Origin: Lachnospiraceae bacterium
GTDB lineage: Bacteria; Bacillota; Clostridia; Lachnospirales; Lachnospiraceae
Assembly (NCBI GenBank): GCA_045128635.1
Contig: JBGVRS010000170.1
Span: 4,253-68,252 of the forward strand
Length of the DNA: 64,000 bases
Reading direction: 5' to 3'
A program made the position numbers and the translations under genes. Within the stretch, counting starts at the first letter, position 1; the number at the start of each line of letters is the position of its first letter. Shown here in pieces: positions 1,569 to 51,280 of the stretch. The notes beneath the pieces are model-generated. The model was given only the letters and a program-made list of their open reading frames with translations, was not told where the DNA came from and did no database searches.

Positions 1569-2072
1569 ATGCTGAATGTTAGTCCATGGAATTTGCTGTT
1601 TATCGTAGTAAATTTGTTAGTTCTTTTAGCATTGATGAAAAAATTTTTATATAAGCCAGTGCTGAATATTATTGCAAAACGTCAGGAGTTGATTGACAGT
1701 CAGTTTGCTCAGGTACAGGCATCTCAAGAAGAGGCAAAGCAGTTAAAAGAAGAATATGAAGGCTGTCTGGCAGATGCAAAAGCGCAGCAGGAAAGCATCC
1801 TGAAAGAAGCAAAAGTGCAGGCAGGAATAGAATACGATAAAATTTTAGCAGAAGCAGATGAGAAAGCAAAGCAGATGATCGAAGATGCAAAGAAAGTCAG
1901 TCTTGATGAAAAAGAAAAAGCAATCAAAGATGCAGAATCTGAAATTGCAAAACTGGCAGTTGCAGCAGCCTCAAAAATTGTATCTCAGGCATCTGATGAA
2001 AAAAATAATTATGTGATTTACGAGGAATTTCTGAAAAAAGCAGGTGAGAAGAGTGAAACAGACAGAAATTAA
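1569..2072 (+). CDS. atpF: F0F1 ATP synthase subunit b
   Basis: N-terminal TM helix followed by a long charged coiled coil (A/E/K-rich). Operon position fits and the RBS is strong (AGGAGAAGGAAGG). Confidence 0.9.
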
Positions 2073-3825
2073 GGGTACACCAAAATCGATAGATTGTCTG
2101 GATGCTGTACTTAGTTATGTGACAGCACCTACACCAGAACAACTGGTGGGAATTCAAAGATTTCTCAAGAAAACGTATCGTGCTGAAAGCGTAAGGATTG
2201 TAGAGGAACAGGACACGTCTTTAGGCGGTGGATTTAAGCTACAGGTGGGGACAGATGAGTTCGACTGGAGCACAAAGGAAAAAGTAAGGCAGTTGGAAGA
2301 AAAATTGACAAATGCCGTAAAAAAAGAGCATGACAGCAGCAAAGAGATTATTACGATTTTGAAAGAAGAAATTGACAATTTCGATGCAAAGATAGAGGGA
2401 CACGAAATCGGTTTTGTGAACTTTGTGGGAGATGGAATTGCCAATATCGATGGAGTCAGTCACGCAGAATATGGCGAAATCCTGTTGTTTGACACTGGCG
2501 TAAAAGGAATGGTGCAGGACATCCGAAAGGATGAAATTGGTTGCATTCTTTTTGGGCGGGAAGGCGGAATCAAAGAAGGAACCCGTGTGGTCCGTACTGG
2601 AAAGAGAGCTGGTATTCCTGTTGGCGAAGAATATCTTGGACGTGTGATCGACGCGCTTGGCGCACCGATTGACGGTCAGGGGGAAATTAAGGCTTCCGAC
2701 TATCGGCCTATTGAGCAGAAGGCTCCAGGAATTGTGGAAAGAAAGTCGGTCAGCGTTCCGATGGAAACGGGAATTTTGGCAATTGATTCTATGTTCCCAA
2801 TTGGAAGAGGCCAGCGTGAATTAATTATTGGTGACAGACAGACTGGAAAGACGTCGATTGCGATTGATACCATCTTGAATCAGAAAGGAAAAGATGTCAT
2901 CTGTATTTATGTGGCTATTGGACAGAAAGCATCTACAGTCGCAAAGCAGGTGAATACCTTGAAGAAGATGGATGCCATGGACTACACTGTGGTGGTTTCT
3001 GCAACAGCAAGTGAACCGGCATCCTTACAATACATTGCCCCTTATGCAGGTACAGCGATGGCAGAATATTTTATGTATCAAGGCAAAGATGTTTTGATTG
3101 TTTATGATGATTTGTCGAAACATGCAGTGGCGTATCGTGCTTTGTCATTACTTTTGGAACGTTCTCCTGGACGTGAGGCATATCCGGGGGATGTTTTCTA
3201 TCTTCATTCCAGACTGCTGGAACGTTCTAGCAGATTGAATGAAGAAAATGGCGGGGGTTCCATTACGGCACTTCCTATTATTGAAACACAGGCAGGAGAT
3301 GTGTCTGCTTACATACCGACAAATGTAATCTCTATTACAGATGGTCAGATATTTTTGGAAAGTGACCTGTTCTTCTCAGGTATGCGTCCAGCGGTGAATG
3401 TAGGTCTTTCGGTTTCTAGAGTTGGTGGCGCAGCGCAGACAAAAGCAATGAAAAAAGCTGCTGGAAGTATTCGAATTGATTTGGCACAGTTTAGAGAAAT
3501 GGAAGTGTTTACGCAGTTCGCATCTGATTTGGATGATGCGACGAAAGAGCAGTTAGCTTATGGAAATAGTTTGATGGAACTATTGAAACAGCCTTTGTGC
3601 CATCCGATGAGTTTACATGAGCAGGTAATCACGCTATTTTTGGCTTCACAAAAAAAGTTTCTCGCTGTGGAAAAGGTGCATATAAAAGAGTACCAGAAAG
3701 CAATTTTGTCATATTTCGAAGAGGAGCATGCAGATATTGTGAAGGAAATTGAGCAGACAAAAGATTTGTCAGAAGAATTAAAGAGTAAAATTTTGGAGGC
3801 AGCAGAGATATTCAAAAGTAGGTGA
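2044..3825 (+). CDS. atpA: ATP synthase alpha subunit with an N-terminal delta (OSCP) C-terminal-domain fusion
   Basis: aa ~98-593 are a complete alpha subunit (GDGIA, Walker [30 protein letters not shown]). aa ~24-92 match the delta C-terminal domain (D.SL.GG..L.VG...D.S...K...L). There is no stop and no plausible internal start between them. Alternative start GTG at 2053 after AGGTGA. Confidence 0.85.
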
Positions 3826-38858: not shown

Positions 38859-38886
38859 CGGGGAAGGAAGTTCTCATCCTTCCCCG
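38859..38886 (+). terminator. Hairpin after groEL (weak U-tract)
   Basis: CGGGGAAGGA-8 nt-TCCTTCCCCG. The downstream sequence is only moderately T-rich. Confidence 0.5.
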
Positions 38887-38939: not shown

Positions 38940-39374
38940 ATGGAATATCAGATATTTATAGTGGGGCTTTGTGTCATTGCGTGGAAAGATATCATGCAAA
39001 ATAAAGTGCCTAATTCGATACTGCTGATATTATTGTTGTTAAAAATCGTTTTTTTCACAAGTGACAGAACAAGGACAATGCTCTCTTTAGAAGGTTTTTT
39101 ACTTGGAGGCGGATTTATGCTTGCGGGTTATCTGCTATCGAAAGGAACCATGGGGGCAGGAGATGTGAAACTGCTGGCTGTGGTGGGCAGTTATGTTGGA
39201 GGTGATAGGATTCTCTACGTAATTTTATGGAGTTTACTGGCTGCGGCAGGCTATAGCCTTAGTTTGTGGTTAAAAAATAAGACGGAAATTCGTAATGAGC
39301 TTCCCTTGGCGCCATTTGTGTTAATTGGAACGATTCTTAACTTTCTATTAGAAAACAGAGGTGTTTTATGTTAG
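38940..39374 (+). CDS. A24-family prepilin-type aspartic peptidase (minimal CpaA/TadV-like, 144 aa)
   Basis: Polytopic membrane protein with both catalytic Asp motifs: AWKDIMQNKVPN and GAGDVKLLAVVG. Confidence 0.75.
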   Translation: MEYQIFIVGLCVIAWKDIMQNKVPNSILLILLLLKIVFFTSDRTRTMLSLEGFLLGGGFMLAGYLLSKGTMGAGDVKLLAVVGSYVGGDRILYVILWSLLAAAGYSLSLWLKNKTEIRNELPLAPFVLIGTILNFLLENRGVLC

Positions 39375-41047
39375 AAAATGGAACAATTTTAGACGGGAAA
39401 TATGAAATATTAAAATTAATTGATAGGGGTGGAACCTCGTCGGTTTATTTGGCGATGAACCCAAAACTGAATCAGCAGTGGGTCATCAAGGAAATCGATA
39501 ACCGGTTTGATACAGAAAGGGTCTTAAAAGAAGCCCGAATGATGATGAAGTTTGATCATCCGGCAATCCCCCGTATTGTTGATATTATGGAAAAACCGGA
39601 ATTTACCTATATTATCATGGATTATGTTTCCGGACAGTCATTGGCTTATGAGCTAAAAGAAAAGGGTCCCCAGCCACAGGAAGTGGTCATTGGCTGGGCA
39701 AAACAGATTTGTGATGTGCTGGTGTATTTGCATTCCTTAAACCCGCCAATTATTTATCATGATTTAAAGCCGGGAAACATTGTTTTAAAAGAGCCGGAAA
39801 AGAACCTGAAATTAATAGATTTCGGAGAGGCACGAGCCTGTATCAATGGAAATGCTCCGGGAGGTGGAAAAACAAAAGAATATGCAGCGCCGGAGCAGCA
39901 GGAAGGAACGCGAGGAAAGACGGATGAACGAACAGATATTTATTGTTTTGGCACAACACTGTATCGACTCTTAACAGGAAAGTTTGCTCCGATTTCGCCG
40001 GAACCGGTAGGTTCTCTTAGGGAAGCCTATCCGGAATTCAATATTTCTAAAGGAATGGACAATATTATCAGAAAATGTACGCAGATTGATCCGGATAAAA
40101 GATTTCAGAGTGCTGCGGAACTAAGGAACGCATTGGATAACATCCGATTATGGGATGAGGATTACTTAAAACAATTAAAAAGACGGGTTTACAGTGTAAC
40201 AGTAGCGGCAGGAATCGGAATTGGATTATTCATGACCGGATTCGGCTTTCACAGGGCGGTAGCCTTTGTGAATACAAAAGATTATAATCATCTGGTAGCG
40301 ACTGCCCAGTCCGTAGAGCATGAAACAAGGACTGCAAATTATGAAGAAGCAATTCATATCGATGGTGAAAACCCGGAAGCATATATCAAATTGCTGGAAG
40401 CGTATGAAAATAACGGTTTTTTTGGAACGCAGGAAAGTCAGAGATTCAGTACCTTGTACAACCGAAACAAGAGTGCGTTTGATGCAGAGAAAGATGACGT
40501 TATAGAAATGCATTATCGGATAGGAAGAATTTATTTCAATTTGTATTCAGATGACAGTACAACAGTCCGTTCCCGCATACAAAAAGCTCATGAATATTTT
40601 CAGTTTGTCAAAGTCCACAGTTCACCTGACTATGCAAATTATCACATAGCATCCGGTTATGAAACATTATGCGATTTTTTTAAAACATATGTGTTAAATG
40701 ACAGCAGTATTCAGGAACCAACAGCAGAAGATTATCTTGCAATGCTGGATGCCTTAAAAGAATGTCTGACAGACATGCAAAACTACACTGCCGGGGATGC
40801 GGCTTATACAAGGCTGACACTTTATGGATACATTGTGGATATGTTAAATGTAAATATCAGAGGTTTGGCTGTCACAGGAATTGAAAAGGAGAAAATTCAA
40901 GAGATTCTGACGCAGATTTCCGTATCAACAAAAAACGAGAGTATTACACAGCAGATGTCAATCAAAAAACAGGAGGAAATTTTGCTGTCAGTAAAAAATG
41001 TTTTAGATAACATCAGACGAGAGTATGGAAGTTTAGAAAGAGGGTAA
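39368..41047 (+). CDS. Membrane Ser/Thr protein kinase (Hanks type) with extracytoplasmic helical-repeat domain
   Basis: G-loop GRGGTSSVY, Lys in WVIKEI, and the YHDLKPGN, DFG and APE motifs. One TM at aa 274-294, a C-terminal ~265 aa TPR-like region and no PASTA domain. The start overlaps the peptidase stop by 7 nt. Confidence 0.85.
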   Translation: MLENGTILDGKYEILKLIDRGGTSSVYLAMNPKLNQQWVIKEIDNRFDTERVLKEARMMMKFDHPAIPRIVDIMEKPEFTYIIMDYVSGQSLAYELKEKGPQPQEVVIGWAKQICDVLVYLHSLNPPIIYHDLKPGNIVLKEPEKNLKLIDFGEARACINGNAPGGGKTKEYAAPEQQEGTRGKTDERTDIYCFGTTLYRLLTGKFAPISPEPVGSLREAYPEFNISKGMDNIIRKCTQIDPDKRFQSAAELRNALDNIRLWDEDYLKQLKRRVYSVTVAAGIGIGLFMTGFGFHRAVAFVNTKDYNHLVATAQSVEHETRTANYEEAIHIDGENPEAYIKLLEAYENNGFFGTQESQRFSTLYNRNKSAFDAEKDDVIEMHYRIGRIYFNLYSDDSTTVRSRIQKAHEYFQFVKVHSSPDYANYHIASGYETLCDFFKTYVLNDSSIQEPTAEDYLAMLDALKECLTDMQNYTAGDAAYTRLTLYGYIVDMLNVNIRGLAVTGIEKEKIQEILTQISVSTKNESITQQMSIKKQEEILLSVKNVLDNIRREYGSLERG

Positions 41048-41052
41048 AGCGT

Positions 41053-41313
41053 ATGGCAAATATATTTTCAACGATTTCAATGGTATGTTTCGTACTTTCC
41101 GGTATGAGTTTTGTGGGCGCAATCATTTTATTTTATGTAATGAATACAAAAGCAGCATATCTGGAATTAAAAGGAAAGCCGCAGAGTTATGTGGTTGTCC
41201 AAAGCAGAGGCGAGGCAGCTGCGGAGACACCGACCCGTAAAATAAATGTGGAGGATGATGCAGTAACGACGATTTTGCATCCAAAGCTTGAAAGGAGCAA
41301 AAGAAATGTATAA
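41053..41313 (+). CDS. Small single-TM protein, unknown function
   Basis: 86 aa with an N-terminal TM helix (FSTISMVCFVLSGMSFVGAIILFYV) and a charged, Thr-containing tail. It is tightly packed between the kinase and the giant gene. Confidence 0.5.
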   Translation: MANIFSTISMVCFVLSGMSFVGAIILFYVMNTKAAYLELKGKPQSYVVVQSRGEAAAETPTRKINVEDDAVTTILHPKLERSKRNV

Positions 41314-44300
41314 GAAAGTTCTGGTGATACTGGTAATTGTACTGACAATGGGAATCTTTTGTGGAACAAATGTACAAGCGACAACAGCTGAGATTACTTT
41401 AGAAACAGAAGATAATCAGAAAGTGTATGATGGGAGAGCCGTGTTCAATGACAAAGTAAGATTCCAGGTTGCATTAAAAGAAACTGAAACGCTCCTTTCT
41501 GATGTAGAACTGGAAGTGATTTTAAAGAATCATCAGGGAACGATTGAAAATACCTATACAGCGGACTCTGATATCTGGATTTCTAAAGAAGAGAATAGCA
41601 TGATTGGAGAATTAAAAGAACTTGAGGATGGTTATTACACATTAGAGGTAAATATCACAGATGAAGAGGGAAAGTCCGCAACACAATCCACGGTCAGCTT
41701 TATCAAAGACAGTACAAAACCAAAGGTGAGCGTCAAAAATAATCTGACATATCACGAAGAACGCATGGAAGAAAATTGCTATACGGGCGGTTTCCTGACC
41801 GTTACTATTGAGGAAATGACTTTCACAACTGAAGAAGAGGCAATCATTAAAGGAATTGAAACAAAGGCAGAAGACTGGAACACTATAATAGATGAAGAAA
41901 CAGGCCAGGCTACAAAGACCATCACATTAAGGTTTGGGGACGAAGAAAATTATCAAGAAGGAGATTATAAATTCAATGTAACAGTAAAGGATGTGTTTGA
42001 GAGAGAAAGCACCTATATAATAGAAGATTTTGTTATTGACTACACATCTCCGGTACTGCAGAGCATTTCCTATGATACGGAATCTGCATTTCATACAGTA
42101 GGTACAAAAGACTATGTCAATGCCCCCACCAAAATAACATTTACCATCAAAGAGCGTAATCCGGCAGCAAATCATTCTTTTATCGCCAATGATAAGGAGA
42201 AACGAGAACATAAGTGGACTGAAATTGCAGAGGATTTATATACCACAGAAGTGAATGTTCCTATGTTTGGCGAAAAAGGCGATGAACAGACGATTATGAT
42301 GAAAATCGTAGATAAGTCCGGGAATAAGGCTGTCCTTGGAAAAGAAACGATACTTCGAAGTGCAAATAATACGACATTTGAAGCGGGAGTATTTACGGAT
42401 AAGTTTACCGTGGATACCGTGGCGCCGGTAATCAGACTGGAATATGAAAAGCTTGAGCCAAATCGTTTTAATATAGAAGGAATTGATTATTTCAATCAGC
42501 CGGTGACTGTCAAGGTGACGATTGATGAGCATAATGTAGAGGAAAGCTTTTTTGAATTATCCATAAAAACAACAGATGAAGATATAATTTATGAGGAATC
42601 AGAGTGGACAGGAACCGGTGATATCTATGTAAAAACATTTACATTTCGTAAAGATAATCGGTATGATTTATCTGTTTGCGGTACAGATATTGCGAAAAAC
42701 CCGCTGAAAATACAGACAGTAGATAAGGTGACCGCTATCAATGAAGAGGATGGCACGGTGATATTAAAAACGGCTGTGGATCAGACTCTTCCATGGATAG
42801 AACTTGCTGCAAAAACTACAGCAGTGAATACGACAATTGATGGACAGCCTTTGTACAACAAAGATGTAATTTATGAAGCAACGGTCGGTGATCCACTGTT
42901 AAATAATTACGCATCAGGCATTCATAATATCCGATTCGCTCTAAAAGGTGAGGATGGGACATCCCTTGAATATGACGCAGGCAGTCAGTTGATATCAGAT
43001 GTAAAAATTGCGAGTGAATCATTCAATACAAACGGAATCATTCTTTCTGTGAATGCAGAAGATGTTTCTACAAATAAGAAAGCGATATCCACAAAAGCAA
43101 TTGCCATTGATACAACTGCGCCTATGGCAGAAGTTTCTTATGATAATAATGAGGTAAGTAATGAAAAGTATTTCCACGCGGAACGGACTGCGACAATTAC
43201 AGTGACAGAACGTAACTTTAGTGATGACTGCTTTCAGTTCCTGGTAAATGGTGAGGATCAAAAGCTTGAATTTAAGCTTGCAAACACCGGAAGTGGAAAT
43301 AGAGATGATGCAGTATGGACAGCTTCGTATACATTTGCCTCAGATGGAGATTATCAGGTGGATTGCATTTTGAAGGATCGAGCCGAGAATCCGGGTACGG
43401 TATCCTATCGTGGTATGGCGGCACAGGATTTTACAGTTGATAGGACTAGTCCGGTTGTTAAGATTGAATTTGATAATCATAATGTATTTCATGAAAACTA
43501 CTATAATGCACAGCGCATTGCAACAATTATTGTTACAGAGCATAATTTTGATAGCGGTGATGTGGTAATTGTGGGAACATCAACAGATGCAGGTGTAGAA
43601 ATTACATACCCTGTCTTAAGTGACTGGTCATCTAATGGAGATGAGCATCGTGCAACGCTAACATTTGCGAAAGATGCGCTCTATACATTGGATGTGGAAT
43701 ATAAAGACCTTGCAGAAAATGCAGCAAATGATGTTCTGGAAGAGCGATTTGCTGTGGATACTACAGATCCGGAGTTGACAATTACAGGTGTTGAAAACGA
43801 AACACCTTATCCGGATGAGGTCCGCCCGAAAATTCATTTCTCAGATAATAATTATGACAGATATGAAGCAAAGCTGATACGCGTTGAGCGTGAAAAAAGT
43901 GATGTCAATGTAACAGAGGACATGATTGGCAGAATCGGTGTTGCGATTGATGCGACAGGGAGAGGAATGGGTGGAAAAATTATTGAAAATGTGCCACACC
44001 TGAAAGAAAATGATGGTATTTATACATTATCGGTGACGGTATATGACAAAGCCGGGCGCCAAACAGAAAAGTCAGTGACTTATTCTGTAAATCGTTTTGG
44101 TTCTGTTTATGTATATAGTGATGATCTGACAGCGTTATTAAAAGGATATCATAGAGCAGCGACCGGCGACCTTTTTATCGAGGTCTATAATGCAGACCGG
44201 TTATTGGAAGCATCGACAAAGCTTGAAATTACCTGTGATGGAGCAAAACTCGCAAATCAGAAGAGTCAGGCGGATGTAAAAGAAGCACTTCGGCAAAATA

Positions 44301-44881
44301 CCGGAGGCTGGTTCTACTATAAATTTAGACTAGATTCTGCGGATTTTATCAATGACGGACGTTATACGATAACTCTTTCTGACAAAGACGAAGCGGGAAA
44401 TATAAGAACAAATGGTGATGCGCCAATCGAATTCTATATTGATAAGAGTACACCGGTGATTGAGAGTGTAATTGGTCTGGAAGAAGCAATCGTTAACACA
44501 GATAAACAAACAGTACAGTATGTGATTAGGGACGCAATTGCTCTGAAAAGTGTGAAAATTTATGTAAATGGAAAGATAATTTCTGACATCAAAGAATTTG
44601 ATGATTTAACTATATATAATGGTGAATTTACCATCCATACCGGTATGAAACAGAAAATACGTATTATAATAGAAGATAAAGCCGGGAATGTACTGGATAC
44701 ATCAGAAGTATCCTTTGAACCTGCGTATCCATTTAACGATGAAATAACAGTATCTACGAATTTCTGGATTCGGTGGTACGCGAATGAACCACTTTTCTGG
44801 AGTTTTGTAGCAGGGCTGGCGGCAGTGATTGTGGGAGGTAGTGTTTGGTTTCTATTAAAAAAGAAGTATAATAAAGAATAA
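41306..44881 (+). CDS. Large (~1190 aa) cell-surface protein of repeated Ig-like modules with C-terminal TM anchor
   Basis: ATG at 41306 follows AAAGGAG. It has a signal peptide (MYKKVLVILVIVLTMGIFCGTNVQA) and eight D-x-[ST]-x-P module starts at 106-125-aa spacing. The C-terminal TM is followed by a KKKYNKE tail, and there is no LPXTG. Confidence 0.85.
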   Translation: MYKKVLVILVIVLTMGIFCGTNVQATTAEITLETEDNQKVYDGRAVFNDKVRFQVALKETETLLSDVELEVILKNHQGTIENTYTADSDIWISKEENSMIGELKELEDGYYTLEVNITDEEGKSATQSTVSFIKDSTKPKVSVKNNLTYHEERMEENCYTGGFLTVTIEEMTFTTEEEAIIKGIETKAEDWNTIIDEETGQATKTITLRFGDEENYQEGDYKFNVTVKDVFERESTYIIEDFVIDYTSPVLQSISYDTESAFHTVGTKDYVNAPTKITFTIKERNPAANHSFIANDKEKREHKWTEIAEDLYTTEVNVPMFGEKGDEQTIMMKIVDKSGNKAVLGKETILRSANNTTFEAGVFTDKFTVDTVAPVIRLEYEKLEPNRFNIEGIDYFNQPVTVKVTIDEHNVEESFFELSIKTTDEDIIYEESEWTGTGDIYVKTFTFRKDNRYDLSVCGTDIAKNPLKIQTVDKVTAINEEDGTVILKTAVDQTLPWIELAAKTTAVNTTIDGQPLYNKDVIYEATVGDPLLNNYASGIHNIRFALKGEDGTSLEYDAGSQLISDVKIASESFNTNGIILSVNAEDVSTNKKAISTKAIAIDTTAPMAEVSYDNNEVSNEKYFHAERTATITVTERNFSDDCFQFLVNGEDQKLEFKLANTGSGNRDDAVWTASYTFASDGDYQVDCILKDRAENPGTVSYRGMAAQDFTVDRTSPVVKIEFDNHNVFHENYYNAQRIATIIVTEHNFDSGDVVIVGTSTDAGVEITYPVLSDWSSNGDEHRATLTFAKDALYTLDVEYKDLAENAANDVLEERFAVDTTDPELTITGVENETPYPDEVRPKIHFSDNNYDRYEAKLIRVEREKSDVNVTEDMIGRIGVAIDATGRGMGGKIIENVPHLKENDGIYTLSVTVYDKAGRQTEKSVTYSVNRFGSVYVYSDDLTALLKGYHRAATGDLFIEVYNADRLLEASTKLEITCDGAKLANQKSQADVKEALRQNTGGWFYYKFRLDSADFINDGRYTITLSDKDEAGNIRTNGDAPIEFYIDKSTPVIESVIGLEEAIVNTDKQTVQYVIRDAIALKSVKIYVNGKIISDIKEFDDLTIYNGEFTIHTGMKQKIRIIIEDKAGNVLDTSEVSFEPAYPFNDEITVSTNFWIRWYANEPLFWSFVAGLAAVIVGGSVWFLLKKKYNKE

Positions 44882-44903: not shown

Positions 44904-44937
44904 AAACACCCCGGAAATTTGATTTCCGGGGTGTTTT
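44904..44937. terminator. Bidirectional terminator
   Basis: AAACACCCCGGAAAT-TTG-ATTTCCGGGGTGTTT perfect 15-bp stem. Confidence 0.9.
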
Positions 44938-44943
44938 ACAGTC

Positions 44944-45927
44944 TTAATTATTGAGCATTTCTCTGACTTTTTCTTCGCTCAAACAGAGTTTCTTGGCAGC
45001 ATCAGCTACAGTGATGATGCCGTCCCGAAGCAGTTCTACATAAGTTTCAAGCTTCCCTTGCGAAATGCCTTGTGAGATACCTTGCGAAATACCCTGATTA
45101 ATTCCAGCTTTAAAGGCCTTTTCTGCAATACCCTGACTTACATTACACATATTGTTGATACCTCCTTCTAATTCTCGTGACATTTGCATTTGATGTTTTT
45201 CTACTAGAATTCTTTTCTTATTTTCCACATTCAATTCATTTGAAAAGAGCGTGTCCAGCATATGAATCAGCTGGTGCTTACTGTTTTTCTTTTTTGTGGT
45301 AGAAAGTCTGATGAAAGATATGGAAATGTAATCATGCTTCCAATCTTTAACTGGTTTTCCATATACATCTTTCTTTTCAAGATAGTATTCGGTAATCGTA
45401 TCGCACTCTTTTTGCGGAGCGTCGAAAAAAATCCAGATGGAATAGACTTTCTTTAAATCATCATAGTTATTTGCTGTAAATTCCCGGTCTAATTGCTCAG
45501 AAATCATTCTAGCACAGTAAAATACTGCCCGGGGTTCAAAATGATAGGATTCATAATATTTTTTTTGTAACTCAATATTTAATATGAGTTTGATCCGAAT
45601 ATTATCCGGTGTAATCATATAGAATCGCACATCAAAAGTAACTGTTCCTTCATTAGGAATCGTACTCTCATTATTCATTCCGGTGATGGCTTCGGAATCA
45701 AGATTCCGCATTCCTGGGTAAACAGGTATTTTGGAAATTTCCGGTTCGTCTTCAATACAGTTTATGATTGTAGGAATGTCATAATCCTTAAATTCAGTGG
45801 TTCTATACTTAGCAATTCTTGCCAAAACTTGTTTGTCGGCAATCAAAGCTTTTGCATTTTCATCATATTGAGCCTGAATCTTGGCAAGCTCAATATTGTT
45901 AGCCAAATACGTATTTATCGTTTGCAC
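44944..45927 (-). CDS. Rpn-family recombination-promoting nuclease / putative transposase (PD-(D/E)XK)
   Basis: Typical family layout: the DVRFYMI...LILNIELQKK nuclease core and a C-terminal helical region with a (GISQ)n repeat. GTG start after AAAGGAG. Confidence 0.65.
   Translation of the reverse strand: MQTINTYLANNIELAKIQAQYDENAKALIADKQVLARIAKYRTTEFKDYDIPTIINCIEDEPEISKIPVYPGMRNLDSEAITGMNNESTIPNEGTVTFDVRFYMITPDNIRIKLILNIELQKKYYESYHFEPRAVFYCARMISEQLDREFTANNYDDLKKVYSIWIFFDAPQKECDTITEYYLEKKDVYGKPVKDWKHDYISISFIRLSTTKKKNSKHQLIHMLDTLFSNELNVENKKRILVEKHQMQMSRELEGGINNMCNVSQGIAEKAFKAGINQGISQGISQGISQGKLETYVELLRDGIITVADAAKKLCLSEEKVREMLNN
45055..45105 (-). repeat. 12-nt tandem repeat (4 imperfect units) encoding GINQ-GISQ-GISQ-GISQ
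   Basis: Units TTGCGAAATGCC / TTGTGAGATACC / TTGCGAAATACC / CTGATTAATTCC on the + strand. Confidence 0.8.
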
Positions 45928-47159: not shown

Positions 47160-47171
47160 TATGAGTTATCT

Positions 47172-47210
47172 ATGAGGCGCATTTTTTTAATGTGCCTCAT
47201 ATTATTTTAT
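47172..47210 (+). terminator. Terminator after the DUF4349 gene
   Basis: ATGAGGCGCAT-loop-ATGTGCCTCAT (one G-U pair) followed by a T-rich stretch. Confidence 0.5.
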
Positions 47211-47476
47211 CAAAAAGGTGCAAAAAAAGTAAAAATAGTGTAAAAATAATTGAAATTCTATCGACTTTTCTGACCAGAGTGCTATAGTGACATTGAAACA
47301 GGTAGTTGTTTTACATAATGACGTTTGAAAGAGATGGAATTAGAAAAACTATTTAAAAAAAACCAGTAGGCAGACAGGAGGTAAGTTCTGACCTTTTTTA
47401 TGTGAAAATAATTATCAATATTCTCGATAGACAAACTTTTGCCTATAGAAAATGTTAATGAAATAGGAGGAAAGAA

Positions 47477-48295
47477 ATGAAGAAGAGATTTTATGCAGGC
47501 TTATTGACCTTTGTGATGATCGTCAATTTAATGTCTGCGGCAGTTTTTGCAGAAGATAGCACACCTGTATGCTTAGCAGAATGTGTTGCAGATGAGCATG
47601 CAGAAGGTTGCCCTGTTTTTGCGTCAGCAGAAGAAGCAAGACTGGCAGAAGAAGCAAAATTAGCAAAGGCAGGAGATACTATTTCGCTTATTCGTAATGT
47701 AGAAGCTTCGAATATTATCACAATTGATAAAGCAATTACATTAGACGGTAATGGCAAGACCCTTACATCAAAAGCAGGACGTGCAATTAACGTAGATACA
47801 ACAGGCGAAGTGACAATCAAGAATCTTGAAATTATTGGTGGAACAGGTTGTGAACGAGGAATCAATATCATCAATAAAGCAGGAACAACGAATATTCAAA
47901 ATGTTAAAATTTCTGGTGAAAGTCATTATGCAGTGCATGTGGCAACATCAGCAGGTGCAGCAAATGTAAATATTACTGATGCTGACCTTACAGGATATGG
48001 AGCAGTTGCTATTTATGGTGAAGGCACAAAGGTTAATGTTACAAATTCTGATTTAACAGGAATCAATACATATACAGGTGATAGTAATGCATTCTTTACA
48101 GTTGCAATCGGCGCGAAAAATACAGCCGTTAATGTAACAGGTGGAAAAATAACAGCAAAGAGTAATGATGGTTATGAAGCTGAGTACATTTTTGGTCATA
48201 ATGCCGATACAAGTACTGGCTCAAAAGTAAACTTAGATACAGAGCTGGTTCTCGAAGGTACAAATACACATTATCTGATGGTCGTATACAGTTGA
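47477..48295 (+). CDS. Secreted parallel beta-helix repeat protein (likely the 5' part of a frame-split surface protein gene)
   Basis: Signal peptide MKKRFYAGLLTFVMIVNLMSAAVFA, then repeated ~22-aa NV.I..S/T.L.G units typical of right-handed beta-helices. Confidence 0.65.
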   Translation: MKKRFYAGLLTFVMIVNLMSAAVFAEDSTPVCLAECVADEHAEGCPVFASAEEARLAEEAKLAKAGDTISLIRNVEASNIITIDKAITLDGNGKTLTSKAGRAINVDTTGEVTIKNLEIIGGTGCERGINIINKAGTTNIQNVKISGESHYAVHVATSAGAANVNITDADLTGYGAVAIYGEGTKVNVTNSDLTGINTYTGDSNAFFTVAIGAKNTAVNVTGGKITAKSNDGYEAEYIFGHNADTSTGSKVNLDTELVLEGTNTHYLMVVYS

Positions 48296-49527
48296 CAGCA
48301 GCATGCGTAAATGGTCATACTTTTGCAGATAAAGTAATCACAGATTCAACATGTACAGCAACAGGAACAGCTCACTATATGTGTGTAGGTTGTGGAACAG
48401 TGAAAGAAGTGAAGACAATCGCAGTCAAGGCTCACAGCTATGGCGGTTACAAATCAGATGAAAACGGTCACTGGAAAGAATGTTCCTGTGGTGCAAAAGT
48501 AGATTCAGGTTCACACAACTATAGAGTAGGCGGCGTTTGTGCTACATGTGGATATGAAATTAAAGTTGAAGTTTACGAACCGGAAACAACAACACCGTCC
48601 ACAAGTACAACAACACCAAGCACAACACCAGCAACATCTACTACAACTACAACACAGACAACAACTAATACAGAAACAACTACACCGGAAACTACTACAA
48701 CACCTTCCGAAGAAATTGCAGTTCCTGTAGAAGAAGTGGTAGTTGATACAAAGATTGTTGAAGAAGTTGCAACTGAAGAAGTAAAAGAAGCTGTGAAAGA
48801 AACTGTAACTGTAGCAGAAGTAAAAGTAGCTGTAACAACAGAAACAGTTGACAAAGTTATCGAAAATACAGAAGCTGGCGCAACAGTCATTCTTCCGTTA
48901 ACAGAAGTGGCAGAAGAAGGACAGGCAGTTACAGAAGCAGAAGTAGCGGTAGAAGCGCTCGAAAAGATTGTTGAAGCAGAAAGTGCATTAACAGTAGAAT
49001 TTGAAGGCGTGAAAGTATCCTTTGATGCAGAGACTGTAAAAGCAATCGCTGAACAGGCTAAAGGCAGTGTGATTGAACTTCGTGTAGTTCCTGTTGAATA
49101 TCATGAATTGAACGAAGAACAGCAGGCTGTTTTAGAAGCACATGATGTTGCAATCTGTGTATCAGCTCAGATTTTCAGTGATGGAGAATACATTGGAGAT
49201 TTCAAGGGTGGAAAGGCAAGAATTGCGATTCCATTTACTCCGGAAGAAGGAAGATTAGCAGAAGACCATAAAGTTTACTATGTAGCTGATGATGGTGAAA
49301 TGACATTGATGCCATTTACATACGCAGACGGACATATGGTTATCGAAACAACACATTTCTCTGACTACGTAATCGTTTATGATGAAGTAGCAGCAGTTGG
49401 AGAAGGTCCTGCAGAAGTAGAAGATGATATGGCTGTAGAAGAAGCTCCGGCAGAAATTGTGGAAGAAGAAGCTGGCTTACCAATCGTTCCAATCATTATT
49501 ATCGTAGTGGTTGTTCTTTTGTTATGA
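48292..49527 (+). CDS. Cys-rich / Thr-rich / Glu-Val-rich tail-anchored surface protein segment (likely the 3' part of the same gene)
   Basis: No RBS, and a TTG start overlapping the upstream stop (TTGA). The frame is open from 48202. It has CxxC-type motifs, a Thr/Pro linker, an acidic region and a terminal hydrophobic anchor (PIVPIIIIVVVVLLL). Confidence 0.55.
   Translation: MTAACVNGHTFADKVITDSTCTATGTAHYMCVGCGTVKEVKTIAVKAHSYGGYKSDENGHWKECSCGAKVDSGSHNYRVGGVCATCGYEIKVEVYEPETTTPSTSTTTPSTTPATSTTTTTQTTTNTETTTPETTTTPSEEIAVPVEEVVVDTKIVEEVATEEVKEAVKETVTVAEVKVAVTTETVDKVIENTEAGATVILPLTEVAEEGQAVTEAEVAVEALEKIVEAESALTVEFEGVKVSFDAETVKAIAEQAKGSVIELRVVPVEYHELNEEQQAVLEAHDVAICVSAQIFSDGEYIGDFKGGKARIAIPFTPEEGRLAEDHKVYYVADDGEMTLMPFTYADGHMVIETTHFSDYVIVYDEVAAVGEGPAEVEDDMAVEEAPAEIVEEEAGLPIVPIIIIVVVVLLL
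48583..48705 (+). repeat. Low-complexity ACA/ACT-rich tract encoding a Thr/Pro/Ser linker
   Basis: Encodes ETTTPSTSTTTPSTTPATSTTTTTQTTTNTETTTPETTTTPS. Confidence 0.85.
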
Positions 49528-49645
49528 AGAAATCTGTTAGTGCAATTACATTATAAGTATTTATATTGTGTCACAAATATAAAAATATTCTATGTTGAAA
49601 ATGTGACTAAAAGGAGATATAATATTAGTACGAAAGGGTGATTTT

Positions 49646-50014
49646 ATGAGCAAAATGATGGAAAACAAAGCAATTATACGTGGAGAACGTTTTAAAATGA
49701 TTCGATCCACTCATGGTTACACACAGGAACAATTAGCTAATTTTTTAAAGATTGATCGAACAATGCTGACAAAATTTGAAAAAGGTGAGCGTTCATTAGG
49801 TATTTCTGTGCTTGAAAAGGCATGTGATTTGTTTGGATGTACTCTTTTGGAACTTGAGTCTAGCACACCGTATGTTCCATTGACTGTTGCTTTTAGAGCC
49901 AAAGAATTAACGGCTGATGATATGGAATCAATTTCTAAAATTCAAAAATTAGTTTTAAACACAAAGAAAATGAAAAAATTAGAAGAAAAGGCGGTGAATA
50001 ATGTTGAAAAGTGA
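49646..50014 (+). CDS. XRE-family HTH transcriptional regulator
   Basis: HTH_3 core: ERFKMIRSTHGYTQEQLANFLKIDRTMLTKFEKGERSLGISVLEKACDLFG. Confidence 0.85.
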   Translation: MSKMMENKAIIRGERFKMIRSTHGYTQEQLANFLKIDRTMLTKFEKGERSLGISVLEKACDLFGCTLLELESSTPYVPLTVAFRAKELTADDMESISKIQKLVLNTKKMKKLEEKAVNNVEK

Positions 50015-50750
50015 AATTCAGCTTAATGCGGAAGCTGTAAAGTTTCGTGAAAAAAAAGGACATAGTAACAAAGAGCCTTTGAATATTTTTAGCCTATTGC
50101 TTTCAGAAAAAAACTATACTTTGATTAAAACGAAACTTTCCAGCAATATCAGTGGGATGTGTATTAGAGATGATGAAACATATTTTATTGCATTGAATTC
50201 AGCGATGTCTTTGGGAAGGCAAAGATTTACTTTAGCGCATGAACTCTATCACTTAGAAATCGAAGGTTTAAACGAGGGGTGTATTTGTGGCTCATCGCTC
50301 TATGACGCAAAAAGTGTTCAAGAAAAAGAAGCGGATATTTTTGCTTCATTTTTATTAATGCCATATGATGGATTAGAATGGTACATTGAATCAAACCAGA
50401 TTAAAAAATGGACAGTGTATGAGGTTATCCGATTAAGTGTGTTTTTTGGTATTAGTTATCTGGCAACGATATGCAGACTGGAGAGGGAAGGGAGAATTGA
50501 TAAAAAACAAGCATCAGAATTAAAAGAATATAATGTTTGCGGAGAAGCGGTAAAATATGGATTGGATCCAAAGTTGTATTATTCGACAGATGAAGAGTTC
50601 CAGGTTATGGGAGATTATCCTAGAAGATTGGAAATATGTAAAGAAAAAGGCATTATGAAACAGGGATTATATAATCAGTATATAAGAGAAGGTAACTTAG
50701 ACGACAAAAAATATCCTGAAATGGAGAGAGGGGTTATTCTGAATGATTGA
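50001..50750 (+). CDS. ImmA/IrrE-family (COG2856) zinc metallopeptidase
   Basis: HEXXH motif in FTLAHELYHLE and a downstream EKEADIFASFLLMP, typical of the family. It overlaps the XRE gene by 14 nt. Confidence 0.8.
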   Translation: MLKSEIQLNAEAVKFREKKGHSNKEPLNIFSLLLSEKNYTLIKTKLSSNISGMCIRDDETYFIALNSAMSLGRQRFTLAHELYHLEIEGLNEGCICGSSLYDAKSVQEKEADIFASFLLMPYDGLEWYIESNQIKKWTVYEVIRLSVFFGISYLATICRLEREGRIDKKQASELKEYNVCGEAVKYGLDPKLYYSTDEEFQVMGDYPRRLEICKEKGIMKQGLYNQYIREGNLDDKKYPEMERGVILND

Positions 50751-51230
50751 TGTCACACAAATGAAATGTGTGTCAGACAATGTCAAAAGAGTGATATTTG
50801 CTGACACAGACGCACTATCCAGCTTCTTGTGGAGAGGCAGATTTGGATTGTTCTTAAAGCTTTTTGAAAAATTGCAAATCATTGATATAGAGGCAGGTAC
50901 GGCAGAATATCATACTTATCTTTATCTTACCGAAGAAGAAGGGATGGGAAAAGGAGAAGCCGCTGCTCTTAGTATGGCAAAGCATTCGGAGTATATTGCA
51001 AGTGTAGCAAGTAATAATTTATCTGATATTTGGGAGTATGTAGAAAAAACAAGATTGATTTATGGACAACTGCAAGAATAATTTATGAATGTCAGTTGGA
51101 GGAGATTATGACGAAAGAGAGCGCGGAACAGCTCTGGAAAAAGATGGTGGAAGACGGAGATAGACTTCCGTTTGATAATTATAATGAGTATGTAAAAAGA
51201 AAAAAAGGTGAAAATAAGACTAGAGGGTAG
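50743..51230 (+). pseudogene. PIN-like domain gene interrupted by a frameshift in an A6 run
   Basis: ORF 50743-51081 (IFADTDALSSFL...GKGEAAALSMA) continues in the +1 frame as ORF 51030-51230 (KNKIDLWTTARIIYECQLEE...). One extra A in GAAAAAAC (51043-51050) would fuse them. The PIN assignment is tentative. Confidence 0.45.
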
Positions 51231-51246
51231 AAAGATAGGGCGTGTT

Positions 51247-51280
51247 CGTAACTGATTCGAACATGCCTTTAATTGTTAGA
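51247..51280 (+). terminator. Terminator-like hairpin
   Basis: GGCGTGTTCG-9 nt-CGAACATGCC followed by TTTA. Confidence 0.45.

What the first reader, a model, noticed from the sequence alone, without database searches (positions are those of the whole stretch)
38940..44881. Coupled four-gene operon: orphan A24 prepilin-type peptidase, membrane Ser/Thr kinase, small TM protein and giant multi-Ig surface protein
Seen in sequence: four same-strand ORFs are bracketed by hairpins (38859-38886 and 44904-44937), and their junctions suggest translational coupling. There is a 7-nt overlap at 39368-39374, a 5-nt gap at 41048-41052 and an 8-nt overlap at 41306-41313.
- Gene 1 is a minimal 144-aa A24 aspartic peptidase that keeps both catalytic Asp motifs (AWKDIMQNKVPN, GAGDVKLLAVVG).
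- Gene 2 is a Hanks kinase with all catalytic motifs intact (non-RD: YHDLKPGN). It has one TM and a ~265-aa extracytoplasmic helical-repeat domain that is not PASTA.
- Gene 3 is an 86-aa single-TM protein.
- Gene 4 is a ~1190-aa signal-peptide protein of ~9 Ig-like modules with a C-terminal TM anchor.
Established knowledge: A24 peptidases normally accompany type IV pilus, Tad or Com machinery (pilins, secretion ATPase, platform protein). None of these is in the window. None of the co-encoded proteins shows a classical G|(F/M)xxxE or Flp G|xxxxEY cleavage motif.
Inference: the peptidase and kinase may form a dedicated processing and signalling module for the surface protein. I cannot place this combination in any described system.
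Basis: partly seen in the sequence, partly recalled or inferred. Interest (0 to 1): 0.7.

Follow-up and report, generated by a model that had tools for sequence, protein, structure and literature searches.

The report
Stripped-down type VII secretion gene cassette
Three of the four genes (kinase, small membrane protein, giant Ig-like stalk protein) match the membrane module of the recently described "type VIIe" secretion system, kept here without its secretion motor; the pilin-type peptidase in front is linked to them by gene layout, but a functional link is unproven.

Summary
There are four co-oriented, tightly packed ORFs between two stable hairpins: an intact 144-aa A24 peptidase, a one-TM Hanks kinase with an all-helical TPR-like ectodomain, an 86-aa one-TM protein, and a 1191-aa all-beta protein with a Sec signal and a C-terminal TM anchor.

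The claim that the combination fits no described system is wrong for genes 2-4. They are homologues of TseD, TseH and TseI, the membrane components of the T7SSe/T7SSd type VII secretion variants (Garrett et al. 2024, PMC11217815). Their relatives sit in loci that also carry an FHA-FtsK/EssC ATPase, WXG100 proteins, YukD, PP2C and DUF6382-FHA.

The 64-kb window has none of those core genes. It also has no Tad/T4P genes and no prepilin-like substrate.

The cassette lies in a hypervariable island just after groEL in a Lachnospiraceae lineage. All four genes are under purifying selection (dN/dS 0.07-0.44).

The peptidase lies inside the island. A second, unrelated ATPase-less TseDHI lineage also has an A24 peptidase. 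However, one sister allele at the same site and every complete T7SSe locus examined lack it.

Verdict: a new, motor-less variant of a known (so far only computationally described) system, with an unexplained, recurrent but non-obligate A24 partner. Moderate interest.

The parts
38859..38886 (+). Stable hairpin after groEL. It marks the end of the conserved flank.
   Evidence: dG -19.3 kcal/mol, z -5.0; identity to sister genomes stays at 93-97% up to here and through the intergenic region.
38940..39374 (+). A24 aspartic (prepilin-type, TadV/CpaA-sized) peptidase, 144 aa. It is the first gene of the variable island.
   Evidence: PF01478, 52.7 bits; both catalytic motifs (AWKD..VPN, GAGDVKL) are kept in all 7 variants compared; dN/dS 0.23-0.35, dS 0.7-1.0; identity to sister genomes drops from ~95% to 61-73% at about 38960.
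39368..41047 (+). TseD-like membrane Ser/Thr kinase: cytoplasmic Hanks domain (non-RD, YHDLKPGN), one TM (about residues 274-292), and an extracellular all-helical TPR-like domain.
   Evidence: 57% identity over the full length to the kinase of the T7SSe locus L009, and 34-37% to those of L010 and L011; the ectodomain family has 322 representatives at E<=1e-3; dN/dS 0.065-0.09.
41053..41313 (+). TseH-like small single-TM protein (86 aa, N-out/C-in). It is a shortened form that keeps the juxtamembrane motif and one acidic-x-T-T-I-L motif (AVTTIL, residues 70-75).
   Evidence: TseH HMM 1.2e-29; homologous to the 100-211-aa proteins at the same position in T7SSe loci; motif positions; fused in frame to TseI in L012.
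41306..44881 (+). TseI-like giant envelope protein: Sec signal peptide (VQA|TT), about 10-11 Ig-like beta-sandwich modules, a conserved TVSTNFWIRWYAN-PLFW motif, a C-terminal TM and a basic tail.
   Evidence: 108 homologues; these homologues lie in loci with FtsK/EssC ATPase, YukD and WXG100; dN/dS 0.22 overall; the N-terminal 300 aa are the most divergent.
44904..44937 (+). Terminator hairpin with a short U-tail at the end of the operon. It is shared with the convergent PDDEXK_2 gene.
   Evidence: dG -25.3 kcal/mol, z -5.8; sequence.

Best explanation
Genes 2-4 are a motor-less copy of the membrane module of a type VIIe-like secretion system. TseI is a long Ig-like stalk, exported by Sec and anchored by its C-terminal helix. 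TseD is a transmembrane Ser/Thr kinase whose helical TPR-like ectodomain faces the stalk. TseH is a small N-out/C-in membrane protein with a cytoplasmic tail.

Shown: homology to TseD/H/I of loci that carry the full T7SS core; absence of that core from the 64-kb window; location in a hypervariable island next to groEL; purifying selection on all four genes.

Inferred: the trio works as an envelope-spanning contact or surface sensor. Events at the stalk are passed to the kinase ectodomain. The kinase then phosphorylates Thr in the conserved acidic-x-T-x-[VI]-[LI] motif of the TseH tail, which fits the pT+3 hydrophobic preference of FHA domains. In complete systems this would recruit the FHA proteins TseJ and TseC. 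In this genome the output partner is either elsewhere or lost.

The first gene is most likely an ordinary TadV/CpaA-type prepilin peptidase whose pilin substrates are encoded outside the window. It belongs to the same variable cassette and is co-expressed with it, which points to co-regulation of a pilus with the stalk/kinase module rather than processing of TseH or TseI.
For: - Literature: T7SSd/e are defined with TsxD (one-TM kinase with a helical extracellular C-terminus), TsxH (one-TM small protein) and TsxI (Sec signal peptide, Ig-like domains, C-terminal TM).
- Homologues in complete loci. L010: Trypsin-FHA|PP2C|kinase|171 aa|LRR|giant|..|FHA-FtsK ATPase 1664 aa|..|YukD|WXG100 x4. L011 and L033: FHA|PP2C|kinase|TseH|TseI|DUF6382-FHA|ParA-like|YukD|FtsK ATPase|WXG100. 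L009 and L015: ATPase C-terminus, WXG100s, DUF6382-FHA, PP2C, kinase, TseH, TseI.
- Pairwise identities between the window and L009: kinase 57%, TseH 29% (E 6e-12), TseI 36% over the C-terminal 680 aa.
- No FHA, PP2C, WXG100, YukD, FtsK-ATPase or DUF6382 hit in any window ORF, even at E<=10.
- dN/dS 0.07-0.44. dS is 0.5-2.3 in the island against 0.17-0.31 in the flanks.
- The identity break falls at the peptidase start.
- In-frame TseH-TseI fusion in L012.
- T-x-[VI]-L motifs in TseH tails, and GETTVL x2 in front of the FHA domain of the L014 TseJ.
- A second ATPase-less lineage with an A24 gene, L014/L031/L032.
- Unlinked tadV genes are normal in Bifidobacterium.
Against: - The T7SS core could be encoded elsewhere in the genome; only 64 kb was visible.
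- No experiment exists for any T7SSe component, so the role of TseD/H/I even in complete systems is a prediction.
- The window's TseH is truncated and lacks the C-terminal F-x-[VI]...T-[DE]-E-[IV]-I motif found in most family members.
- The operon encodes no FHA protein or phosphatase.
- The phospho-acceptor role of the Thr motif is inferred from sequence only.
- The peptidase is absent from the sister allele L034 and from all complete T7SSe loci examined. Its link to the module may therefore be fortuitous.
Confidence: 0.6

Rival explanations
1. Split T7SSe. The genome has a complete type VIIe system whose ATPase (TseC), WXG100, YukD, PP2C and FHA genes lie at another locus. The window's trio is simply its membrane part and functions in protein secretion.
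For: TseD/H/I are core parts of T7SSe. Sister alleles at the same site carry extra T7SSe parts: PP2C in L013 and L034, and Trypsin-FHA + PP2C in L001, which has the same front end as the complete locus L010. The downstream end of L001 could not be seen.
Against: In every complete locus examined, all parts lie within about 20 kb. Garrett et al. report the core genes clustered. In W, L005, L012, L013, L034 and L031 the module is flanked by housekeeping or unrelated genes on both sides. Nothing T7SS-like lies 39 kb upstream or 19 kb downstream in the window.
Confidence: 0.3
2. The peptidase is an unrelated neighbour: the cell's TadV/ComC-type prepilin peptidase for a pilus locus elsewhere. It hitch-hikes at the edge of a recombination hot spot and has no functional tie to the kinase/stalk module.
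For: The L034/L035 allele has groEL|PP2C|kinase|TseH|TseI with no A24 gene. No A24 gene lies within 10 kb in L009, L010, L011, L015 or L033. In L001 a divergently transcribed HTH gene separates the peptidase from the module. The window has no substrate motif. Unlinked tadV is the rule in Bifidobacterium. The A24 of L014 is no closer to the window's (30% identity) than a generic CpaA (35-38%).
Against: The peptidase lies inside the variable island, not in the conserved flank. Its dS matches the island's. It overlaps the kinase start by 7 nt, with an SD sequence inside its 3' end. Alleles 36-69% identical to the window's all occupy the first position of the cassette. A24 genes occur in 2 of about 7 independent TseDHI lineages, against roughly 1% expected for a random 20-kb stretch (my own rough estimate from about 2 A24 genes per genome, not a tool result). 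Both of those lineages lack the ATPase.
Confidence: 0.35
3. One reading: the peptidase is a dedicated processing enzyme for the small TM protein or the giant surface protein, with the kinase signalling on that event.
For: Tight coupling of the four genes and conserved order in close relatives.
Against: TseH has an uncharged N-terminus and basic residues after the helix, so it is N-out; A24 enzymes cut N-in leaders. TseI has a classical signal-peptidase-I site. TseI N-termini do not differ between A24+ and A24- loci. No [GAS]xxxxE motif is present. The module exists without the peptidase.
Confidence: 0.08
4. Decaying remnant: the four genes are leftovers of a deleted T7SSe (or Tad) island on their way to loss.
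For: Core genes are missing. TseH is shortened compared with family members. Mobile elements lie next door: PDDEXK_2 at 44944-45927 and a window-specific insert at 47168-51277.
Against: All ORFs are intact in the window, in 10 of 10 contigs with an identical GroES, and in alleles diverged to dS 0.5-2.3. dN/dS is 0.07-0.44. Catalytic motifs are intact.
Confidence: 0.05

Closest known systems
T7SSe / T7SSd membrane components TseD-TseH-TseI (TsdD-H-I), Garrett et al. 2024, microLife (PMC11217815)
   Same: Same three architectures in the same order: a one-TM Ser/Thr kinase with an intact active site and a helical extracellular C-terminus; a small one-TM protein with a cytoplasmic tail; a giant Sec-signal, Ig-like, C-terminal-TM protein. 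There is direct sequence homology to such proteins in loci that also hold FHA-FtsK ATPase, WXG100, YukD, PP2C and DUF6382-FHA.
   Different: No ATPase, WXG100, YukD, PP2C, DUF6382-FHA or candidate substrates in 64 kb. TseH is truncated. The kinase is non-RD (YHD), whereas most family members are YRD. An A24 peptidase gene heads the operon; the paper's main text and the supplementary files held contain no mention of 'peptidase', 'prepilin' or 'A24'.
T7SSb EssB (pseudokinase) - EssA - EsaA/YueB
   Same: Analogous topology: a kinase-fold protein with one TM and an extracellular domain, a small one-TM protein, and a very long extracellular stalk thought to span the wall.
   Different: No sequence homology was detected: none of the Pfam hits to the four proteins is a T7SSb family. 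The kinase here is catalytically intact. The stalk is built of beta-sandwich Ig-like modules, and its Foldseek matches are generic Ig/FN3 arrays only.
T6SS threonine-phosphorylation pathway (PpkA kinase - PppA PP2C - Fha1; TssL phosphorylation in Agrobacterium)
   Same: A membrane Hanks kinase with an extracellular sensor domain is thought to switch a secretion machine by creating a pThr docking site for an FHA protein. The authors make this comparison themselves.
   Different: Different machine and no homology outside the kinase/PP2C/FHA folds. Here the FHA and PP2C partners are missing from the locus.
TadV/CpaA-type prepilin peptidases, including unlinked tadV of Bifidobacterium; Tad loci next to T7SSg/T7SSh
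   Same: Small A24 enzyme of 144 aa; both Asp motifs are present. It is encoded away from pilus genes, as in Bifidobacterium. Tad genes are always adjacent to the T7SSg and T7SSh loci.
   Different: Here the peptidase alone, with no Tad gene, is fused into an operon with T7SSe-type membrane genes. Whether the genome has a Tad locus is unknown.

Membership tests
T7SSe (Garrett et al. 2024) | [quoted passage not shown] | tested here: not met
   No hit to a TseC HMM in any window ORF of at least 50 aa, even at E<=10. The only other ORF above 700 aa is pyruvate:ferredoxin oxidoreductase. The rest of the genome was not visible.
T7SSe (Garrett et al. 2024) | WXG100 pair (TseA1/A2) and ubiquitin-like TseB (YukD) | tested here: not met
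   No WXG or YukD HMM hit in the window. Both are present in L009, L010, L011 and L015, and YukD is present in L033.
T7SSe (Garrett et al. 2024) | TseD: one-TM Ser/Thr kinase with an active site and a helical extracellular C-terminal domain | tested here: met
   Pkinase 7e-39; catalytic K, D, N, DFG and APE present; one TM at 274-292; 12-helix ectodomain. 57% identical to the kinase of T7SSe locus L009.
T7SSe (Garrett et al. 2024) | TseH: small protein with a single TM helix and a short cytoplasmic region, encoded between TseD and TseI | tested here: met
   86 aa, one TM at 11-29, same position in the gene order. HMM E 1.2e-29. BLAST E 6e-12 to L009 TseH. Shortened form.
T7SSe (Garrett et al. 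2024) | TseI: large protein with a Sec signal peptide, Ig-like domains and a C-terminal TM helix | tested here: met
   29-36% identity to the TseI of L009, L010 and L011 over the conserved C-terminal half.
T7SSe (Garrett et al. 2024) | TseF (PP2C phosphatase) and TseJ (DUF6382 + FHA) | tested here: not met
   No PP2C, FHA or TseJ hit in the window. PP2C is present in the sister alleles L001, L013 and L034.
T7SSe (Garrett et al. 2024) | TseK (a second small one-TM protein) | not tested
   No reference sequence or model was available. The operon contains no extra small TM ORF.
A24 type IV prepilin peptidase, TadV/CpaA subtype | Peptidase_A24 domain with both catalytic Asp residues | tested here: met
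   PF01478 at 52.7 bits against a cut-off of 26.5. D in AWKD(x6)VPN and D in GAGDVKL, conserved in 7 variants.
A24 type IV prepilin peptidase, TadV/CpaA subtype | A cognate substrate with a class III signal peptide (G/A|xxxxE[YF] or G|FxxxE) and pilus assembly genes in the neighbourhood | tested here: not met
   No motif in any window ORF of at least 30 aa. No Tad/T4P/Com Pfam family among all ORFs of at least 110 aa. In L014 the adjacent 486-aa protein has ..EDEA|SAVVEAVISF.., a sub-threshold TadE match (E 0.34).
A24 type IV prepilin peptidase, TadV/CpaA subtype | Proteolytic activity on prepilins | not testable with these tools
   Requires biochemistry or genetics.
PASTA-type (PknB/Stk1) wall-sensing kinases | Extracellular PASTA repeats | tested here: not met
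   NF033483 scores 152 against a cut-off of 450 and matches residues 5-259 only. No PASTA Pfam hit. The ectodomain is all-helical.
T7SSb (EssB/EssA/EsaA) | Sequence homology to YukC/EssB, EssA or EsaA families | tested here: not met
   None of the Pfam or NCBIfam hits to the four proteins is an EssB/YukC, EssA or EsaA family. The resemblance is topological only.

The most novel reading that the evidence does not exclude
ATPase-less TseD-TseH-TseI cassettes are not broken T7SSs. They would be a distinct, undescribed envelope-spanning signalling/adhesion system that has repeatedly teamed up with type IV-filament (Tad-like) components. In the window's lineage the partner is an A24 peptidase. In the L014/L031 lineage it is an A24 peptidase plus a TadE-like protein and a DUF5702 giant protein. 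Under this reading a Thr-phosphorylation switch borrowed from type VII secretion controls, or is controlled by, a pilus. The A24+ and TseC+ states would be alternative partners of the same module.
Probability: 0.2. Interest if true: 0.7.

Novelty: new variant of a known kind. Interest (0 to 1): 0.45.

Why it matters
T7SSe/T7SSd were proposed only in 2024, from gene neighbourhoods alone, and the role of the kinase/small-TM/stalk trio is unknown.

A lineage that keeps only this trio, under purifying selection and at a fast-evolving locus, is a natural dissection of the system. It suggests the trio can function without the secretion ATPase, for example as a surface-contact sensor or adhesin with a phospho-relay. 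It also gives a minimal four-gene construct for experiments.

The recurrent but non-obligate A24 peptidase neighbour adds to the published, unexplained co-location of Tad pilus genes with T7SSg and T7SSh. It would be worth a proper census.

The locus's strong allelic diversity between genomes with nearly identical GroEL also marks it as a likely target of phage or inter-strain selection.

Tried and rejected
- PASTA/PknB-type wall sensor: rejected, because there is no PASTA domain and the ectodomain is helical.
- Homology to T7SSb EssB/EssA/EsaA: none found.
- Prepilin, Flp or TadE-like substrates in the window and in sister loci: none found, apart from one TadE-like N-terminus in L014.
- Hidden Tad/T4P or T7SS core genes elsewhere in the window: none.
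- GTDB genome scan with the kinase ectodomain alignment: the patterns were too specific and only one locus came back (L009, Ruthenibacterium MAG).
A 6-sequence alignment gave only 6 metagenome loci, so a statistical census was not possible.
- Word-indexed searches with the peptidase and the kinase ectodomain found only 21 and 6 proteins.
- NCBIfam gave no names for the L014 neighbours.
- No literature on DUF5702.
- Foldseek of TseI returned only generic Ig/FN3 arrays. Foldseek of the ectodomain returned only weak TPR matches.
- The region downstream of the L001-type allele (A24 + HTH + Trypsin-FHA + PP2C + kinase + TseH + giant) could not be retrieved, so whether A24 and TseC ever co-occur remains open.
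- The source organism could not be named. Lachnospiraceae is inferred from the syntenic NCBI MAG L034.

Full report
**1. Observation**

The four ORFs are at the stated coordinates on the + strand: 38940-39374, 39368-41047, 41053-41313 and 41306-44881. The junctions are a 7-nt overlap, a 5-nt gap and an 8-nt overlap. Each downstream ATG is preceded at 8-10 nt by a Shine-Dalgarno-like sequence lying inside the end of the upstream gene. This fits translational coupling and makes the ATG at 41306 the likely start of gene 4.

Both bracketing hairpins are far more stable than shuffled controls (dG -19.3 with z -5.0; dG -25.3 with z -5.8). No terminator-like site lies on the + strand inside the block.

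The four products are as follows.
- Gene 1 is a Pfam Peptidase_A24 member above the curated threshold, with both Asp motifs.
- Gene 2 is a Hanks kinase with K, YHDLKPGN, DFG and APE, and a somewhat degenerate Gly-loop. It has one TM helix and a C-terminal domain that AlphaFold2 models as 12 helices (pLDDT 76.5). The matches to solved structures are weak and TPR-like only. There is no PASTA domain.
- Gene 3 has one TM helix and no family hit.
- Gene 4 has Big_3_3 and Big_13 hits. Its all-beta AF2 model (pLDDT 79) has about 10-11 sandwich modules and a terminal TM helix. Foldseek returns only generic Ig/FN3 arrays.

Every other ORF of at least 110 aa in the window is housekeeping or a mobile element: ATP synthase, PFOR, ThiI, RNase J, DprA, TopA, CodY, GroES/EL, DnaG, RpoD, GltX and so on. 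The statement that the window holds no pilus machinery is therefore correct. No ORF of at least 30 aa carries a class III signal motif.

**2. What genes 2-4 are**

The only GTDB genome locus with a related kinase ectodomain is L009, a Ruthenibacterium MAG. There the kinase, a 174-aa one-TM protein and a 2415-aa giant protein are preceded by PP2C, a DUF6382+FHA protein and three WXG100-like genes.

Searching the literature for DUF6382 led to Garrett et al. 2024 (PMC11217815). That paper defines T7SSd with these parts:
- TsdA, a WXG100 protein;
- TsdC, the ATPase;
- TsdD, a one-TM Ser/Thr kinase with a helical extracellular C-terminus;
- TsdH, a single-TM small protein;
- TsdI, a large protein with a Sec signal peptide, Ig-like domains and a C-terminal TM.

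T7SSe has the same parts plus TseA2, TseB (YukD), TseF (PP2C), TseJ (DUF6382-FHA) and TseK.

Homologues of the window's giant protein (108 found) lie in exactly such loci.
- L010: Trypsin-FHA | PP2C | kinase | 171 aa | LRR | giant | .. | FHA-FtsK ATPase (1664 aa) | .. | YukD | four WXG100.
- L011 and L033: FHA | PP2C | kinase | small TM | giant | DUF6382-FHA | ParA-like | YukD | FtsK ATPase | WXG100.
- L009 and L015 start with the C-terminus of the ATPase.
- L016 has kinase | small | giant | ATPase.

Against L009, the window's kinase is 57% identical over its full length. The small protein is 29% identical (E 6e-12). The giant protein is 36% identical over the C-terminal 680 aa.

The kinase ectodomain family has 322 representatives at E<=1e-3 among 1.8 billion cluster representatives.

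All TseI proteins share an AxA-type Sec signal. They also share a TVSTNF-x-IRWYAN-x-PLFWG motif just before the anchor helix and basic tail. In L012 the small protein is fused in frame to the giant protein. This supports the N-out/C-in topology of TseH and a physical link between the two.

Genes 2-4 are therefore TseD, TseH and TseI homologues.

**3. What is missing and how the locus evolves**

HMMs built from the related loci for the FtsK-type ATPase, WXG100, YukD, PP2C, FHA and the DUF6382 N-domain hit nothing in the window, even at E<=10.

The cassette sits right after groES-groEL. Flanks are 92-95% identical in DNA to sister contigs, while the cassette is about 80% identical (L005 type) or replaced altogether (L001 type). 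Identity falls from 93-97% to 61-73% at about 38960, just inside the start of the peptidase gene (start codon at 38940).

dS is 0.5-2.3 inside the cassette and 0.17-0.31 in groEL and the downstream amylase-like gene. dN/dS values are: peptidase 0.23-0.35, kinase 0.065-0.09, tseH 0.37-0.44, tseI 0.22 (0.10-0.36 along its length).

These are therefore old, selectively maintained alleles exchanged by recombination, not decaying genes. Ten of ten contigs with an identical GroES carry the same four genes.

The alleles found downstream of groEL are:
- A24 | TseD | TseH | TseI: window, L004-L008, L012.
- A24 | PP2C | TseD | TseH | TseI: L013. Its peptidase is only 36% identical to the window's, although GroEL is nearly identical.
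- A24 | (divergent HTH) | Trypsin-FHA | PP2C | TseD | TseH | TseI: L001-L003.
- PP2C | TseD | TseH | TseI with no peptidase: L034/L035, a Lachnospiraceae MAG.

None of these shows an ATPase in the flanks that could be seen. The downstream end of L001 is unknown.

**4. The peptidase**

It is a normal-sized TadV/CpaA-like A24 enzyme with intact motifs. Its closest relatives outside this clade are annotated CpaA at 35-38% identity.

Evidence for a link with the module:
- It lies inside the variable island.
- Its stop codon overlaps the kinase start.
- Three very different alleles all occupy the first position of the cassette.
- An independent lineage (L014/L031/L032) has DUF5702 giant | 486-491-aa protein with a TadE-like N-terminus (EDEA|SAVVEAVISF; TadE Pfam E 0.34, sub-threshold) | A24 (222 aa) | WG-repeat | DUF6382-FHA | PP2C | TseD | TseH | 156 aa | TseI. 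That lineage has no ATPase, WXG100 or YukD in the 10 kb downstream.

Evidence against a link:
- The L034 allele and all complete T7SSe loci lack an A24 gene within 10 kb.
- In L001 an opposite-strand gene intervenes.
- The two A24 lineages are not specifically related to each other.
- TseH and TseI show no A24-type cleavage site, and TseI signal peptides are the same with or without the peptidase.
- Unlinked tadV genes are the rule in Bifidobacterium.

Garrett et al. note that complete Tad loci always adjoin T7SSg and T7SSh, and they leave open whether that is functional.

**5. Mechanism proposed**

Shown: the architecture, the homology and the selection.

Inferred:
- TseI is a wall-spanning stalk whose distal modules vary in number and sequence. 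Its length ranges from 1191 to 2415 aa, and the N-terminal 300 aa are the most divergent.
- The TPR-like ectodomain of TseD reads the state of the stalk.
- TseD phosphorylates Thr in the acidic-x-T-x-[VI]-[LI] motifs of the TseH tail: AVTTIL in the window, and QETTVL/AETTIL, EETALL and QVTAIL in others.
- This motif fits the pT+3 Ile/Leu preference of many FHA domains. That preference is established knowledge recalled from memory and was not tested here.
- The same GETTVL motif sits in front of the FHA domain of the L014 TseJ.
- In complete systems this would dock TseJ or TseC. In the window the reader of the signal is not encoded locally.

I rate the identity of genes 2-4 at about 0.85, the stand-alone (motor-less) reading at about 0.5-0.6, and the phospho-relay details at about 0.35.

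**6. Comparison and novelty**

The trio is a member-level match to TseD/H/I. The locus fails the membership test for a complete T7SSe because ATPase, WXG100, YukD, PP2C and TseJ are absent. It works like the T6SS PpkA/PppA/Fha switch and resembles T7SSb EssB/EssA/EsaA in topology only.

What is new:
- (a) ATPase-less TseDHI cassettes maintained by selection at a hypervariable site;
- (b) their recurrent, non-obligate pairing with an A24 prepilin peptidase.

Neither point is described in the one paper that defines the system.

Limits:
- Only 64 kb of the genome was visible.
- The sample of independent loci is small, about 7-9 lineages.
- No component of T7SSe has been studied experimentally.

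Noticed in passing
window 47168-51277: Segment absent from the L005-L007 sister contigs. It holds two ORFs with no family match (47477-48295, 272 aa; 48292-49527, 411 aa), an Xre-type HTH (49646-50014), an M78/ImmA-IrrE peptidase (50001-50750) and a 112-aa ORF. It looks like a small mobile or prophage-remnant insertion.
   Followed up: partly
window 44944-45927 (- strand): PDDEXK_2 'transposase-like' nuclease gene with a QGIS x4 repeat near its C-terminus. It is inserted between tseI and the DUF4349 gene. It is present in all contigs with an identical GroES but absent from the L004/L005-type alleles.
   Followed up: partly
L012 10001-14878: In this allele the TseH-like ORF is fused in frame to the N-terminus of the TseI-like protein, so TM1, the cytoplasmic linker and the signal-anchor form one 1625-aa product. 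This is either a natural Rosetta-stone fusion or a sequencing/assembly artefact.
   Followed up: partly
P0107 (1326 aa) and P0150 (946 aa): Two TseI homologues carry a precomputed Pkinase domain in the same polypeptide as the Ig-like domains. They are possible TseD-TseI fusions or merged gene calls.
   Followed up: no
L014 4754-6466; TseH tails in L010, L011, L014: Repeated E-T-T-[VI]-L motifs. There are two GETTVL copies directly in front of the FHA domain of the TseJ-like protein, and one to several copies in TseH tails. This is reminiscent, from memory, of the ETTS auto-inhibitory motif of GarA/OdhI. The motifs are candidate kinase targets and FHA ligands.
   Followed up: partly
L011 4623-5621 and L033 4504-5634: Complete T7SSe-like loci of this type begin next to a phage-type integrase gene, which suggests that the whole system is carried on an integrative element.
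   Followed up: no
window 2044-3825: The ATP synthase alpha-subunit ORF (593 aa from a GTG) carries a match to the C-terminal part of the delta/OSCP subunit at residues 24-88. No separate full-length delta gene of at least 110 aa is listed between atpF (1569-2072) and atpA. This could be a delta-alpha fusion, or an ORF-calling artefact of the upstream GTG start.
   Followed up: no
L001 10988-12529, L010 3147-4802: Some T7SSe-like loci replace the DUF6382-FHA protein at the head of the cluster with a Trypsin_2 protease domain fused to a C-terminal FHA domain. The T7SSe component list in Garrett et al. does not include such a protein.
   Followed up: no
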